Shown here: positions 3,436 to 60,744 of the stretch, one piece after another
Position numbering within the stretch: position 1 is the stretch's first letter
Layout of the letters: each line of letters begins with the position of its first letter
Virus record (IMG/VR): IMGVR_UViG_3300009103_000004
Location: 32,001-96,000 of that record
Reading direction: 5' to 3' (one strand)
Source of the DNA: a virus
Length of the DNA: 64,000 nt
Notes under the pieces: model-generated
What the model was told of the DNA's origin: nothing
Seen by the model: the letters and a program-made list of their open reading frames with translations, nothing else
Databases searched by the model: none
Program-made: the position numbers and the translations under genes

Positions 3436-4146
3436 TTACTCTGGAAGCGCAATCACTTTATTGGCCAAGTCTTTGGCTGACAACCACTCGTACTTTCCAG
3501 TGCGTGAATTTTTGAATCGTTGGTATATATTACCATCGCTTCCGAGCTTGGCTCCCCAAGCAATTCTAGTATCAACTCCAATACGTTCAGACTCAGGTCC
3601 TTCTATTGCAGAGAGGAACATAAATTCTGACGGGTGAAGGTTTTGTGCATCCTCTGTAATGGATGTAGAACTAGGTAAACCACCAGGTCCCATTTGAGAA
3701 ACCCGCCTAGCCTGCTCTGTGAGATGCATTGGGTTTATCTCCTCAAGAGCCAGGGACAATGGATTACCAGTAATTAACTTTTCCGAATACTTGTTAAAGT
3801 GGCCAGGAGCGATGCTGTTGAGATTTCCCATTCTGGATATCCTACGAACAGTGTTTCGCATCAGCTTCTCAGCATCCATGTCTATGCGCTCACGCAATAG
3901 TTTGTCAGGACCATACACCTTCCTGAACCTAAGAGAGTCGCGTTCGTCCGGGTCAACTAGGCCACGATTAATTGCCAGAACCTTTTCGGTAGCAGACAAT
4001 ATAGTGTCCACTCCACCATCTATCTCATCATCAGGGTCTTCGTCGTCGTACTTAAAGCTAGTAGTTGCAGCCTGCTTTTCATACTGAGACTCGATAGCCA
4101 TTAGCACAAAGTCATCTATGCTATCATCTTCTTCGGAATAACTCAT
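3436..4146 (-). CDS. rpoB: DNA-directed RNA polymerase beta subunit, middle fragment (fork-loop/rifampicin region)
   Basis: [12 protein letters not shown] ~ RpoB [34 protein letters not shown] ~ [46 protein letters not shown] ~ [23 protein letters not shown]; acidic leader ending EKQAA. Confidence 0.9.
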   Translation of the reverse strand: [236 protein letters not shown]

Positions 4147-22194: not shown

Positions 22195-22425
22195 TCAGTC
22201 CTCTTTCTCCAATATTTTCTTATTTTTTTCAACATCATTATCTAACGCAGCAAGACTCTCTTCGAGCATACTGGTAAGTCCTATTTTAAAATAATCATTT
22301 CTAGTAATTTCTTCTTCCCCAATTTTTACAATCATATCGTATGTTTCGTCCTCCATCTCCAAATCTACAGCACAAGACTCAACATCCCTAACCTCTAATA
22401 CTTTTATAACCGGCAAATCTAACAT
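22195..22425 (-). CDS. small acidic hypothetical protein
   Basis: Probable start MLDLPV at 22425; the listed longer start lies inside the structured RNA element. Confidence 0.55.
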   Translation of the reverse strand: MLDLPVIKVLEVRDVESCAVDLEMEDETYDMIVKIGEEEITRNDYFKIGLTSMLEESLAALDNDVEKNKKILEKED

Positions 22426-22462
22426 AAAATTAAATAGTAACACTGTTGCGTTACAGATAAAG

Positions 22463-22708
22463 AAAAAAAAGGTCGGACCACCTCGCCCTGAAACCAAGGC
22501 GAGGCTGCAAAATAAACTCGATAAAGAATTTTAAACTTTAATGCAGGAGGTTTAACTAATGAACATTCAATTTTGAATCTTAATGGCTAGTTACTCCGGG
22601 CCTTCAGCCCTTGTCGGCATCAATAGTTGGATTTCTTTATTCCTTGCATAGGAATGTTATAGCACGTTATTAGCGCGCAGTGAGTTTGTGTTTGCTGGTC
22701 ACGACCTT
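22463..22708 (-). ncRNA. putative ~240-nt highly structured non-coding RNA downstream of the DIP1984-like gene
   Basis: Nested helices AAGGTCG/CGACCTT, ACCA/TGGT, GCAAA/TTTGC, AAACTC/GAGTTT, AAAGAA/TTCTTT, AACT/AGTT, TTGATGC/GCATTAA, GGAG/CTCC, TAACTA/TAGTTA; branch hairpins including CCTCGCCTTG-gttt-CAGGGCGAGG; ends in a T-tract. Confidence 0.7.
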
Positions 22709-22717
22709 AAAGTCTCT

Positions 22718-23239
22718 TCAAACAGAGATGAAGGTTGTCGCGTTAATGCGATCTATTTCATCCTGAAGATCGGCAAGTTCTCGGTTGATGTCCTGCTCTT
22801 GCCTGTCCACATGCTCCTGGTTGAAGTGAGCTGTGTACTTAAGCTCGACAGGATTCTCAGACCTGTAACTTAGCATCTCTTCAAAATGCTTTCCGTCTTT
22901 TGTTTCGAGCCCACGAAAGAAGGATAAAGTATCCTTCATCTCCGAAAGGCGGTAAATCTTTTCCTGGACTCCAGTTTCAGAGTTGGCCCGCTGGATTGCA
23001 GACTTCAAAGAAACGAGCCTTTGCTTTGTTGTGGTGTATTCGTCAAACACCAAAGCACAATCCACGGTGGACGTGCTCTTTTCGCTCTTGGAGTTTTCAC
23101 GCTCCATTATTCCCCTTAAACGGGAAATTTCCTTAACTAGGAGGTTCTTTTCCTTCAAGGCTCTCGCGAGTGACATTTTGCCCTCGCCCACTTTTTCTGC
23201 ATTACTTGTATCAAGTATACCGTCACCAATATCTGTCAT
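22718..23239 (-). CDS. DIP1984-like (septicolysin-annotated) long coiled-coil protein
   Basis: MSLARALKEKNLL..EI..L, LKSAIQRAN, IYRLSEMK..L, C-terminal INRELADLQDEIDRINATTFI pattern. Confidence 0.6.
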   Translation of the reverse strand: MTDIGDGILDTSNAEKVGEGKMSLARALKEKNLLVKEISRLRGIMERENSKSEKSTSTVDCALVFDEYTTTKQRLVSLKSAIQRANSETGVQEKIYRLSEMKDTLSFFRGLETKDGKHFEEMLSYRSENPVELKYTAHFNQEHVDRQEQDINRELADLQDEIDRINATTFISV

Positions 23240-23256
23240 GATTTATTTTAGTTTTG

Positions 23257-23293
23257 AGTTTTATATAAAAAAAGCTCTCTAGGAAAGAGAGCT
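23257..23293 (-). terminator. terminator-like hairpin in the leader of the DIP1984-like gene
   Basis: AGCTCTCT-ttcct-AGAGAGCT + T-tract, lying between the promoter-like motif and the start codon. Confidence 0.7.
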
Positions 23294-23304
23294 AGCTAAT
23301 AAGC

Positions 23305-23321
23305 GTTCATGTATATATAAC
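23305..23321 (-). promoter_or_regulatory. promoter-like motif GTTATATATACATGAAC
   Basis: 17-bp exact match to 59594-59610. Confidence 0.6.
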
Positions 23322-23331
23322 GCAATTATGG

Positions 23332-23370
23332 ACAAGGTTGCACTTTACCCGAAAGCTGGGGCAACCTTGT
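23332..23370. other. hairpin at the 3' end of the glycan operon
   Basis: 10-bp perfect inverted repeat ACAAGGTTGC/GCAACCTTGT; no U-tract. Confidence 0.6.
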
Positions 23371-23939
23371 TATAGATTAAATACCATAACAGAATCTCTA
23401 AACCAACTACAATTTGTGCTAGATTTTTGTAGAGTTTCAGATAATTCATTGTCGTGGGTTAGGCCATACTCGTCCATAACGTCTATAACGTAATCTTGAT
23501 TTTGTTCATTAACATGACCACATCCTCTTTGCCCAATTTTAGCCCAACTAATTATTAGTAAATTGCTGCAATGCCTTAATAAGTTTTCAATATATATTTT
23601 TTCATATTCTTTAGGAATGTGTTCAGCAACTTCTAATGAACAGACCACATCGTACTTTTTATTAAGATCAAATGTTTTAGATAAATCTAAAACCTTACCA
23701 AATCCATCAGTCACTAATTCAACTTCTGGATTGCCGTCGTATGCTTCAACTGCAATTAATGGATTATTCTCTTTTATGTACTTTGCATACTTTGCATCAC
23801 CACATCCAAAGTCTACATATGTATTATAGTTAGAAACTATAGTATTAAGAGTTTTTGAGAAAGATTCATCGTAATGATGATTAATACACGCTCCTTCCCA
23901 GAATCCTCTAGAATTTATTTTTTGTCTATATCGTTTCAC
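23370..23939 (-). CDS. class I SAM-dependent methyltransferase
   Basis: YVDFGCGDA, CSLEVAEHIP, GHVNEQ. Confidence 0.85.
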   Translation of the reverse strand: MKRYRQKINSRGFWEGACINHHYDESFSKTLNTIVSNYNTYVDFGCGDAKYAKYIKENNPLIAVEAYDGNPEVELVTDGFGKVLDLSKTFDLNKKYDVVCSLEVAEHIPKEYEKIYIENLLRHCSNLLIISWAKIGQRGCGHVNEQNQDYVIDVMDEYGLTHDNELSETLQKSSTNCSWFRDSVMVFNL

Positions 23940-60126: not shown

Positions 60127-60744
60127 CTAAAACAATTCGTATGAGACAGAACGTATACAACCCCCGCGAGCTTTTATTTCAGATAAAGTTTTTTTAGATT
60201 TAAACTTTAGATTAAAAGGCTCTTTATCTATTTCTACTCCGCTTTCGTTTTTACAGTCCAACCGTATGTGTGGATTTGTTGGCTTATCAATGTTAGGAAT
60301 AAAGTTTCCTATAGGTAAGTGATCAGTAAAAACTAAAAACTTAAACGGAGTTTTATTATTTACTTGGTTGATAAATCTTAAAATGCTTTCATTGGAAAGA
60401 TGTTGTAGTACCTGCCTAATGATTGCCACGTCAGCTACCGGTAAAGTATCTCTACATATGTCTAGGTGCCTAAACCTAACATTAGGGATGTTAAATCTTT
60501 TTATGTTCCTGTTTATTATAACTTCCGATACATCACAAGCAGTGTATCGTTCACAATAATTAACCAAATGCTGGCCTACATTGAAATCCCCGCACCCGAG
60601 ATCAATGATGGTCTTAGGTTTTACAGACTCTAAAAAGACTGCAACTGCTTCCACATAAGACGACAGGTACGCCCCTTTACTCCCATACCCACTTGAACCC
60701 CAAACGTCTTTTGTGTAAATTTCGTCAAAAATGTTAGTATCCAC
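60127..60744 (-). CDS. class I SAM methyltransferase
   Basis: F..IY...WG.SG.GS, IIDLGCGDF, RQVLQHL. Confidence 0.85.
   Translation of the reverse strand: MDTNIFDEIYTKDVWGSSGYGSKGAYLSSYVEAVAVFLESVKPKTIIDLGCGDFNVGQHLVNYCERYTACDVSEVIINRNIKRFNIPNVRFRHLDICRDTLPVADVAIIRQVLQHLSNESILRFINQVNNKTPFKFLVFTDHLPIGNFIPNIDKPTNPHIRLDCKNESGVEIDKEPFNLKFKSKKTLSEIKARGGCIRSVSYELF

What the first reader, a model, noticed from the sequence alone, without database searches (positions are those of the whole stretch)
22463..23321. Self-contained unit: promoter motif, leader terminator, DIP1984-like coiled-coil gene and a ~240-nt structured RNA (candidate novel protein-ncRNA system)
Seen: ~10 nt after the stop of 22718..23239 the minus strand folds into one closed structure. 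Its 5' and 3' ends pair (AAGGUCG/CGACCUU, ACCA/UGGU) and it ends in a U-tract. A basal junction carries a 10-bp hairpin (22481-22504). A long interrupted rod follows (GCAAA/UUUGC, AAACUC/GAGUUU, AAAGAA/UUCUUU, AACU/AGUU, UUGAUGC/GCAUUAA, GGAG/CUCC, UAACUA/UAGUUA), with three side hairpins and an apical AAGAUUCAAAAUUGAAUGUUCA segment. Nine correctly nested helices is far more than a terminator needs, and a ~290-nt non-coding gap is exceptional in this dense genome. I do not recognise it as tRNA, tmRNA, 6S, SRP, RNase P or a known riboswitch. Knowledge: the protein pattern resembles the uncharacterised DIP1984 family. Inference: protein and RNA form a cognate ribonucleoprotein or toxin/antitoxin-like pair carried by the phage.
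Basis: partly seen in the sequence, partly recalled or inferred. Interest (0 to 1): 0.9.

Follow-up and report, generated by a model that had tools for sequence, protein, structure and literature searches.

The report
Heptad-repeat RNA partnered with DIP1984-like gene
Right behind a small phage gene of unknown function lies a real, strongly folded RNA of about 240 bases with eight evenly spaced 7-base units. The same gene-plus-RNA pair recurs in many phages and bacteria and matches no catalogued RNA family, so it is probably an undescribed protein-RNA particle.

Summary
No Rfam family matches.

The gene is a distant DIP1984/DUF6847 member. The HMM matches fall below the curated cut-offs, but the predicted fold matches crystal structure 3KDQ at Z 13.6. 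Its true start is probably Met22 (23176).

The gene-RNA pair is conserved. In 111 distinct homolog loci the 5' and 3' ends of the downstream stretch pair, spanning about 213 nt. The closing stem and an inner hairpin covary. The core is an array of eight 7-nt units, n-U-Y-A-A-r-n.

A model built only from other loci finds the window's array (22521-22588) as its top hit, E 6.4e-5. It also hits 22 of 28 bacterial and 49 of 81 viral loci, always just downstream of the gene and on its strand.

Protein-RNA binding is inferred, not shown. A toxin-antitoxin reading has no support. The upper helices of the rod, the promoter and the "leader terminator" are unverified.

This scan has noted the same module on other DNA (24 notes). 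I found no published description.

The parts
23311..23320 (-). TTATATATAC motif, candidate phage promoter element (unproven)
   Evidence: With up to 1 mismatch it occurs 25 times in the window against 9.2 +/- 3.0 in shuffles. Several minus-strand copies lie just upstream of gene starts. The longer 17-mer is unique. There is no sigma-70-like match on this strand.
23266..23293 (-). 8-bp hairpin plus T7 run (terminator-like). It may be the terminator of the upstream operon or a leader hairpin of the unit.
   Evidence: Terminator scan. It lies inside the block that is 100% identical in L003 and L004, whose upstream gene differs.
23181..23185 (-). GAGGG Shine-Dalgarno-like element, 4 nt before the ATG at 23176
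   Evidence: Read directly from the sequence. The annotated ATG at 23239 has no such element.
22718..23176 (-). DIP1984/DUF6847-fold protein gene, 152 aa from Met22. The longest ORF runs to 23239 (173 aa).
   Evidence: NF038048 E 7.5e-9 at 35.9 bits, cut-off 70. PF20935 E 5e-5 at 23.7 bits, cut-off 27. 981 homologs, nearly all aligning from query residue 21-22. AF2 pLDDT 93. 3KDQ matches at Z 13.6, rmsd 2.9 A over 144 residues and at Foldseek TM 0.61/0.68.
22463..22708 (-). Whole structured RNA, about 246 nt: +10 to +255 after the stop, from the closing stem to the end of the U run
   Evidence: MFE and z-score, strand asymmetry, no Rfam match.
22682..22708 (-). 5' strand of the basal rod P1 (AAGGUCG, GACC, GCAAA, AAACUC)
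   Evidence: The equivalent 5'/3' duplex exists in 111 distinct homolog loci, median -31 kcal/mol against -19.9 for control segments, p 5e-19. In one subfamily it covaries: 10 of 14 pairs show compensatory changes.
22641..22678 (-). Two 5'-domain hairpins (22662-22678 and 22641-22653, UUCCU/AGGAA)
   Evidence: A UUCCU-loop-AGGAA type hairpin in the same place is visible in relatives L087, L091, L035, L015 and L137.
22633..22640 (-). AUAAAGAA, predicted to pair with the array tail UUCUUUAU (22521-22528)
   Evidence: Relatives have AAAGAG/CUCUUU, AAAAAG/CUUUUU or UUAAAGA/UCUUUAA at matching places. The pairing is not universal at a fixed register (at most 62% paired in A4), so it is tentative.
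22598..22610 (-). G+C-rich pre-array hairpin GGGCU-GAA-GGCCC
   Evidence: A hairpin directly before the array is conserved, and all 7 of its pairs covary in subfamily A3.
22528..22583 (-). Array of eight in-phase 7-nt units: UUAAGAU UCAAAAU UGAAUGU UCAUUAG UUAAACC UCCUGCA UUAAAGU UUAAAAU. The tail UCUUUAU follows at 22521-22527.
   Evidence: All five YYAA cores share one 7-nt register. Model R1, built without the window, hits 22521-22588 at 19.1 bits, E 6.4e-5, and E 1.5e-4 in the whole 167-kb genome. Family consensus is n-U-Y-A-A-r-n, with the two A at 97% and 81%.
22480..22505 (-). 11-bp G+C-rich hairpin inserted in the 3' strand of P1. Most relatives lack a hairpin at this position, although several carry a separate hairpin after P1.
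   Evidence: It is absent from most relatives' 3' parts.
22463..22479 (-). 3' strand of the closing stem (GGUC, CGACCUU) and the U run: probable intrinsic terminator and 3' end of the RNA
   Evidence: About a third of relatives have at least 6 U in the 12 nt after P1. Others carry a separate terminator hairpin.

Best explanation
The stretch is one transcription unit with two products.

The first is a 152-aa DIP1984-fold protein, probably at least a dimer.

The second is a roughly 245-nt structured RNA that starts about 10 nt after the stop codon. It forms the 3' part of the same transcript and ends at its own closing stem plus U run.

The RNA belongs to a widespread, uncatalogued family. Its members have a long basal rod made by the 5' and 3' ends, one or two 5' hairpins and a short G+C hairpin. 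Then comes an array of eight 7-nt units (n-U-Y-A-A-r-n) that thermodynamic folding predicts to be less base-paired than the rest of the RNA.

The most likely mechanism is that the array is a multivalent platform. Copies of the cognate protein would bind one unit each (core YAA plus a 4-nt spacer), giving a particle of defined stoichiometry. TRAP and HutP read spaced triplets in this way.

Shown: the fold, the conservation, the covariation of the rod and hairpin, the array, and the gene-RNA linkage.

Inferred: co-transcription and 3' end, protein-RNA binding, the stoichiometry, and any cellular role. A link to tRNA or translation is only hinted at by the frequent position in phage tRNA islands.
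For: 1. Fold far better than chance on the gene strand.

2. Linkage. In 111 distinct loci of protein homologs that are only 28-46% identical, the downstream stretch closes on itself over a median of 213 nt. The duplexes are much stronger than in control segments.

3. Covariation in an 8-member subfamily. 92% of cells are paired, against 35-50% when partners are slid. 17 of 21 pairs show compensatory changes, and 0 of 500 shuffles reach the observed values. G-U pairs fit the gene strand.

4. The array. YYAA cores recur at 7-nt spacing 82 times against 11.8 expected (z about 20), with further peaks at 14 and 21 nt. 34 diverse RNAs align almost without gaps through eight units. The array is 57 nt long in 30 of 33 of them.

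5. Membership and specificity. Model R1, built without the window, has its top window hit on the array at E 6.4e-5. It hits 22 of 28 independent bacterial loci and 49 of 81 viral loci, always on the gene strand just downstream of the gene, with no hit elsewhere in 523 kb.

6. In all 33 relatives tested, the array is predicted to be less paired than the rest (0.53 against 0.32 unpaired probability).

7. The protein is a confident DIP1984 fold.

8. The model supports, but does not show, a homodimer. ipSAE is 0.64 and the best of 3 controls 0.01. This mark was reached by 20 of 30 proteins solved as pairs of one chain and by 1 of 23 solved as single chains. The runs share at least 96% of contacts and partner pLDDT is at least 89. 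My own alignment was used, so these counts hold only roughly.

9. The only substitution in the 52 RNA bases shared with near-identical contigs lies in an unpaired bulge at +29.
Against: No experiment or read data shows a discrete RNA or any protein-RNA contact.

In the window itself the array is predicted to be largely base-paired with upstream linker segments (0.35 unpaired against 0.31 for the rest). Units 4 and 6 lack the AA core.

The window's R1 score (19 bits) is modest, and the E-values of the shortened calibration are rough.

No inner helix beyond the rod and the pre-array hairpin could be shown to be universal.

The dimer pass may reflect the model's memory of the 3KDQ crystal. The most conserved protein motifs (RENS loop, strand 133-139) sit at the predicted dimer interface, so their conservation need not reflect RNA binding.

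Conserved linkage fits a cis-acting 3' UTR equally well.
Confidence: 0.58

Rival explanations
1. Cis-acting 3' UTR. The structured element stays part of the DIP1984 mRNA and only controls that mRNA's termination, stability or translation. It might do so through feedback binding by the protein. No stable trans-acting particle would form.
For: The element starts 1-10 nt after the stop in nearly all loci, leaving no room for its own promoter. Its closing stem plus U run looks like the terminator. A ribosome terminating at the stop would overlap the first closing helix.
Against: A terminator or stabiliser needs neither about 200 conserved nucleotides nor an almost indel-free array of eight 7-nt units kept across phyla. 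Several relatives carry a separate terminator after the element.
Confidence: 0.2
2. The RNA works on its own. It could be a sponge or decoy for a host or phage factor that reads UYAA units or 7-nt loops, possibly tRNA-related. The DIP1984 protein would merely be co-expressed or act as a helper.
For: 25 of 80 viral loci carry same-strand tRNA genes within 2.5 kb. One locus also holds GOLLD and freshwater-1 RNAs. The unit U-Y-A-A-R resembles positions 33-37 of anticodon loops that read UUR codons; this resemblance is my own observation and untested.
Against: R1 found no array away from a DIP1984-like gene in any locus searched. The window has no tRNA gene, and its genome's only one lies far from the locus. 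Bacterial loci mostly lack them.
Confidence: 0.13
3. Type III-like toxin-antitoxin or abortive-infection pair, with the protein as toxin and the repeat RNA as antitoxin.
Against: In ToxIN-type systems the RNA lies upstream, has repeats of about 36 nt, and the toxin is an endoribonuclease of a different fold. Here the RNA is downstream, the units are 7 nt and the protein is a helical DIP1984 fold. There is no significant PADLOC match.
Confidence: 0.05
4. A DNA-level element, such as an imperfect palindrome of a miniature mobile element, a recombination site or an origin. Its transcript would fold only incidentally.
For: Long inverted ends flank an A+T-rich core. Two independent assemblies of near-identical relatives break 30 and 52 nt into the element.
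Against: There is one copy per genome. Position and orientation relative to the gene are fixed. G-U pairs and the better fold on the gene strand point to RNA. The ends covary instead of being conserved in sequence.
Confidence: 0.04

Closest known systems
DIP1984 family / Pfam DUF6847 (PF20935, NCBIfam NF038048; crystal structure 3KDQ of a Corynebacterium diphtheriae protein), often annotated 'septicolysin'
   Same: Same fold: Z 13.6, rmsd 2.9 A over 144 of 152 residues. Same length and significant HMM matches.
   Different: Scores fall below both curated cut-offs, so this is a divergent phage/PVC-bacterial branch. The family has no known function. I found no paper on it beyond annotation mentions.
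HutP with the hut leader and TRAP with the trp leader (Bacillus): ring oligomers that read spaced triplets. This comparison comes from textbook knowledge and was not tested here.
   Same: A short conserved core separated by spacers of fixed length, repeated many times. HutP sites are NAG plus a 4-nt spacer, also a 7-nt period.
   Different: Unrelated proteins. Those RNAs are 5' leaders that control antitermination of other genes. Here the array sits in a closed structured RNA in the 3' part of the protein's own transcript. Binding is not shown.
Ro60/Rsr with bacterial and phage Y RNAs (YrlA type)
   Same: A structured RNA of 100-250 nt whose 5' and 3' ends form a long closing stem. It is encoded next to its protein partner and often sits near tRNA-related genes in phages.
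   Different: There is no TROVE-domain protein, no tRNA-like module and no Rfam Y-RNA match. The heptad array has no counterpart in Y RNAs.
6S RNA
   Same: About 200 nt, rod-like, with paired ends and a large, less-paired central region. In Verrucomicrobiota the module sits just after a sigma-70-family gene.
   Different: No match to any Rfam 6S model. The central region is a one-sided repeat array, not a promoter-like bubble.
Type III toxin-antitoxin systems (ToxIN, CptIN, TenpIN)
   Same: A protein gene adjacent to a repeat-containing RNA in mobile DNA.
   Different: Opposite gene order, 7-nt rather than about 36-nt repeats, a different protein fold, and no defence-model match.

Membership tests
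DIP1984 family (NF038048 / PF20935) | HMM score above the curated cut-off | tested here: not met
   NF038048 scores 35.9 bits against a cut-off of 70 (E 7.5e-9). PF20935 scores 23.7 bits against 27 (E 5e-5). The matches are significant but below threshold, so this is a divergent relative.
DIP1984 family (NF038048 / PF20935) | Fold of the solved member 3KDQ | tested here: met
   The AF2 model has pLDDT 93. VIA-align gives Z 13.6, rmsd 2.9 A and 144 aligned residues; the next match is at Z 8.8. Foldseek gives probability 1.00 and TM 0.61/0.68.
Heptad-array RNA partnered with DIP1984-like genes (uncatalogued; defined here from 34 loci) | Lies directly 3' of a DIP1984-like gene on the same strand | tested here: met
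   The closing stem starts 10 nt after the stop. The same holds in the homolog loci.
Heptad-array RNA partnered with DIP1984-like genes (uncatalogued; defined here from 34 loci) | 5' and 3' ends form a long closing rod | tested here: met
   The window duplex is -29.2 kcal/mol with helices as. The family median is -31 against -19.9 in controls. The rod covaries in subfamily A3.
Heptad-array RNA partnered with DIP1984-like genes (uncatalogued; defined here from 34 loci) | Array of eight n-U-Y-A-A-r-n units followed by a YUCUUU-type tail | tested here: met
   There are eight in-phase units and the tail UCUUUAU. Model R1, built without the window, gives 19.1 bits and E 6.4e-5. Units 4 and 6 are degenerate, and all steps are 7 nt, whereas the family consensus has one 8-nt step.
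Heptad-array RNA partnered with DIP1984-like genes (uncatalogued; defined here from 34 loci) | Short hairpin immediately before the array | tested here: inconclusive
   A G+C hairpin is present at 22598-22610. In the window, however, 14 extra nt separate it from the array, and no close relative is available to test covariation.
Any Rfam 15 family (including 6S, Y RNA, tmRNA, RAGATH-27, GOLLD) | Covariance-model match | tested here: not met
   Nothing matches in the element at E <= 10 or at gathering score. Nothing lies on the homologous elements of 18 loci at E <= 0.1 or of 20 loci at E <= 0.01.
Type III toxin-antitoxin | RNA repeats upstream of an endoribonuclease toxin, separated from it by a terminator | tested here: not met
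   The RNA lies downstream and the units are 7 nt. The protein has a helical DIP1984 fold. There is no significant PADLOC match.
Intrinsic terminator | G+C-containing stem followed directly by a U run | tested here: met
   CGACCUU closes the stem and runs into 8 U. The 'loop' is the whole RNA, so the simple scan does not list it. Termination itself was not tested.

The most novel reading that the evidence does not exclude
The eight-unit array is a molecular ruler that assembles a fixed number of DIP1984 subunits, for example four dimers, into a new kind of ribonucleoprotein particle. Phages, Verrucomicrobiota/Lentisphaerota and, according to other notes of this scan, archaea would share it. 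The particle would act on tRNA or translation. That would explain why large phages keep it inside their tRNA islands and why its units resemble U33-R37 of an anticodon loop.
Probability: 0.2. Interest if true: 0.9.

Novelty: categorically new. Interest (0 to 1): 0.8.

Why it matters
A domain of unknown function with a crystal structure from 2009, and about a thousand 50%-identity cluster representatives in the search, would gain its first functional handle: an obligate RNA partner.

The RNA would be a new, widespread, structured family with an unusual design: eight phased 7-nt units inside a closed rod. It is absent from Rfam.

The pair occurs in large phages, often beside tRNA genes and other orphan RNAs such as GOLLD, and in bacterial chromosomes. 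It may therefore mark an unrecognised RNA-based process common to cells and viruses.

It is directly testable, because cultured carriers exist.

Tried and rejected
- **RNA similarity:** blastn of the RNA against 50,697 phage records found nothing.
- **Protein searches:** the word-indexed search found only a 99% twin. The single-protein scan of viral contigs found nothing. Profile-based scans were needed.
- **Near-identical relatives (L003, L004):** the contigs end 52 and 30 nt into the RNA. The window-specific upper helices therefore could not be tested by covariation.
- **Mixed alignment:** RNAalifold on 27 full-length elements gave no consensus because the 5' parts align poorly. Only a subfamily worked.
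- **Inner helices:** I tested whether AAAGAR pairing with the YUCUUU tail, or unit 7 pairing with the tail, is universal. At a fixed register only 62-65% of cells pair, so neither is established. A linker-to-unit-5/6 helix seen in several relatives is not in register between them, so I dropped it.
- **Single-sequence periodicity:** lag-7 autocorrelation was weak (the window z is 2.1; 12 of 54 sequences reached the cut-off of at most 2 of 100 shuffles). The pooled motif-spacing test was decisive.
- **Phage T5:** I found no DUF6847, A1-profile or significant R1 match there, so I could not reproduce it. My models cover one branch only.
- **RAGATH-27:** It matched nothing in the window's 3-kb search region at E <= 10 or in 18 homolog loci at E <= 0.1. 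No paper in the library mentions it.
- **Protein leads:** PDB sequence search with the profile gave only chance-level hits. The ESM Atlas gave no lead.
- **Virus type:** neither the NCLDV nor the T4-type capsid family matched the genome, but neither matched any control genome either, so this says nothing.
- **Weak R1 hits at 60191-60383:** no DIP1984-like gene lies there. They are probably chance.
Full report
**Setting.** The window is part of a 167-kb IMG/VR virus record judged 94% complete. Genes around the finding all run on the minus strand. Upstream lies a long island of glycosyltransferase, LicD, pyruvyl-transferase and methyltransferase genes. The window has no tRNA gene. The genome's single one lies far from the locus.

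**The observation.**
- a closing stem (AAGGUCG/CGACCUU, GACC/GGUC) that runs into eight U ending at 22463;
- an 11-bp hairpin at 22480-22505;
- a nested series of helices, with three side hairpins.

The MFE is -87.6 kcal/mol, against -56.6 +/- 4.6 for 200 dinucleotide-preserving shuffles (z -6.75; none as good). The complementary strand is clearly worse (-80.9, z -4.68). No ORF worth considering lies between the stop at 22718 and the next ATG at 22425. Rfam 15 gives nothing in the element even at E <= 10.

**The protein.** The ORF matches NCBIfam DIP1984 (E 7.5e-9) and Pfam DUF6847 (E 5e-5), both below the curated cut-offs.
- An exhaustive HMMER search finds 981 cluster representatives.
- They align from query residue 21-22, and a GAGGG element sits 4 nt before that ATG. 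The real start is therefore probably 23176, giving 152 aa.
- AlphaFold2 with 39 homologs gives pLDDT 93: four long helices plus a small sheet.
- The only convincing structural match is 3KDQ, the DIP1984 crystal structure. VIA-align gives Z 13.6 and rmsd 2.9 A over 144 residues, with the next hit at 8.8. Foldseek gives probability 1.00.
- A two-copy prediction passes its controls. ipSAE is 0.64 and the best of 3 controls 0.01. The mark was reached by 20 of 30 proteins solved as homo-pairs and by 1 of 23 solved as single chains. The runs share at least 96% of contacts and pLDDT is at least 89. My own alignment was used, so the counts hold only roughly, and the pass may reflect memory of 3KDQ.
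- There is no literature on function. 'DIP1984' and 'septicolysin' occur only as annotation labels, and 'DUF6847' does not occur at all.

**Conservation of the pair.** I fetched three sets of loci:
- 80 viral loci;
- 80 metagenomic loci;
- 28 loci from bacterial genomes, namely Verrucomicrobiota (Opitutae, Akkermansia and the cultured Geminisphaera colitermitum TAV2), Lentisphaerota and one Eubacteriales MAG.

Their proteins are only 28-46% identical to the window's. Nearly all are followed by 150-400 nt without an ORF. In 111 distinct downstream sequences, the first 45 nt form a strong duplex with a segment a median of 213 nt away. The median is -31 kcal/mol, against -19.9 for control segments of the same loci (p 5e-19).

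In an 8-member subfamily (A3), the closing rod and a hairpin before the array are 92% paired, against 35-50% when partners are slid by 1-3 columns. 17 of 21 pairs have compensatory changes, and 0 of 500 shuffles reach the observed values. So RNA structure, not sequence, is under selection.

**The array.** I had noticed recurring UCAAA/UUAAA words in all downstream regions. After reading earlier notes of this scan that speak of 7-base units, I tested the period.
- Pooled over 54 distinct sequences, YYAA cores are 7 nt apart 82 times against 11.8 expected (z about 20). Further peaks lie at 14 and 21 nt.
- MAFFT aligns 34 diverse cores almost without gaps through eight units. The array is 57 nt long in 30 of 33.
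- The consensus is n-U-Y-A-A-r-n, with the two A at 97% and 81%. There is one 8-nt step after unit 3.
- The window has eight units in a strict 7-nt register at 22528-22583, followed by the family's tail (UCUUUAU). Units 4 and 6 are degenerate.

**Membership by an independent model.** A covariance model built from those 34 cores excludes the window. RNAalifold found no shared pair, so it scores sequence only (R1).
- In the 64-kb window its best hit falls exactly on the array: 22521-22588 (-), 19.1 bits, E 6.4e-5.
- In the whole genome the same hit has E 1.5e-4, and there is no second copy.
- It hits 22 of 28 bacterial loci, none of which were used for training, and 49 of 81 viral loci.
- Every hit lies on the gene strand, 50-330 nt after the stop. 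Nothing is hit elsewhere in 523 kb.
- Rfam has no match on these elements in 38 loci.

**What remains uncertain in the anatomy.**
- the basal helices (closing stem, GCAAA/UUUGC, AAACUC/GAGUUU), which correspond to the family's rod;
- the UUCCU/AGGAA hairpin;
- the G+C hairpin.

AAAGAA/UUCUUU has look-alikes with compensating changes in some relatives (AAAGAG/CUCUUU, AAAAAG/CUUUUU). It is not universal at a fixed register.

The upper helices (AACU/AGUU, UUGAUGC/GCAUUAA, GGAG/CUCC, UAACUA/UAGUUA) pair array units 4-7 with linker segments. I could not test them, because the only close relatives are contigs that end 30 and 52 nt into the RNA. In all 33 relatives tested, the array is predicted to be less paired than the rest (0.53 against 0.32). 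In the window it is not (0.35 against 0.31). So either the window masks part of its array, or the thermodynamic fold is wrong there.

**The 'unit'.** Two near-identical contigs share a block that begins sharply near window 23345 and runs through the hairpin+T7 (23266-23293), the gene and the start of the RNA.
- Upstream of the block they lack the methyltransferase gene present in the window.
- The 5' non-coding part of the block has no substitution. The coding part has about 19.
- The RNA part has one substitution, in an unpaired bulge.
- The TTATATATAC motif at 23311-23320 is enriched in the window (25 against 9.2 expected) and sometimes precedes genes. This does not prove a promoter.
- The hairpin may simply terminate the upstream operon.

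**Context clues.** 25 of 80 viral loci have same-strand tRNA genes within 2.5 kb, some in arrays of 12-14. One locus also has GOLLD and freshwater-1 RNAs. In at least 12 Verrucomicrobiota loci a sigma-70-family gene lies just upstream. Both are leads only, because related genomes share synteny.

**Interpretation.** The best-supported reading is a two-part module in which the RNA is the cognate partner of the DIP1984-fold protein. The almost indel-free array of eight phased units is what a multivalent binding platform for an oligomer would look like. The closest analogies in logic are HutP (NAG plus a 4-nt spacer) and TRAP.

Binding, stoichiometry and function are inferred. A purely cis-acting 3' UTR, an RNA acting on another factor, a toxin-antitoxin pair and a DNA-level element are weighed in the rivals. 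The last two fit the data poorly.

**Novelty.** This scan has already noted the same module on other DNA (24 notes, including another note on this very stretch). I reproduced the heptad and 3KDQ claims. I could not reproduce the T5 and RAGATH-27 claims. I found no published description of the RNA or of the pairing.

Noticed in passing
window 23333-23939: The 189-aa methyltransferase gene (23370-23939) is absent from two near-identical relatives (L003, L004). In them, a 195-aa ORF that follows the LicD gene runs straight into the conserved block starting near 23345. This is a recent gene gain or loss at the edge of the DIP1984 unit.
   Followed up: partly
window 24500-58300: A long minus-strand island of sugar-modifying genes: several GT2 and DXD glycosyltransferases, LicD, a polysaccharide pyruvyl transferase, an FkbM methyltransferase and a galactosyltransferase-like domain. 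That is unusually many for a phage.
   Followed up: partly
window 60191-60383: Three weak hits of RNA model R1 (E 0.13 to 9) in an A+T-rich stretch. No DIP1984-like gene lies nearby, so they are probably chance.
   Followed up: partly
window 22437-22454: A second small terminator-like hairpin (GTAACGC...GTGTTAC) lies between the RNA's U run and the next gene's ATG at 22425.
   Followed up: no
L016 1-5426 (also L017, L018, L030-L034): In these lake phage contigs the DIP1984-RNA module sits inside an array of 12-14 tRNA genes. In L016, the one locus of this group scanned against Rfam, a full GOLLD RNA (3637-4071) and a freshwater-1 RNA (1870-1932) also lie in the array. This is a dense island of stable RNAs.
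   Followed up: partly
L001 3660-3900 (huge phage LR756500): Downstream of the module there is a broken TnpB-like remnant. It reads ...NPAYTSQTCSECG... and is followed by stop codons.
   Followed up: no
L166 607-1335, L183 612-1319 and at least 10 more Verrucomicrobiota loci: A sigma-70-family gene of about 240 aa (regions 2, 3 and 4) lies directly upstream of the DIP1984-like gene, on the same strand. A conserved gene of about 415 aa with no Pfam match converges on the RNA's 3' end.
   Followed up: partly
window-wide: TTATATATAC (up to 1 mismatch) occurs 25 times against 9.2 expected. Minus-strand copies lie shortly upstream of several gene starts (near 1405, 3411, 34591 and 58234). It is a possible phage-specific promoter element.
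   Followed up: partly
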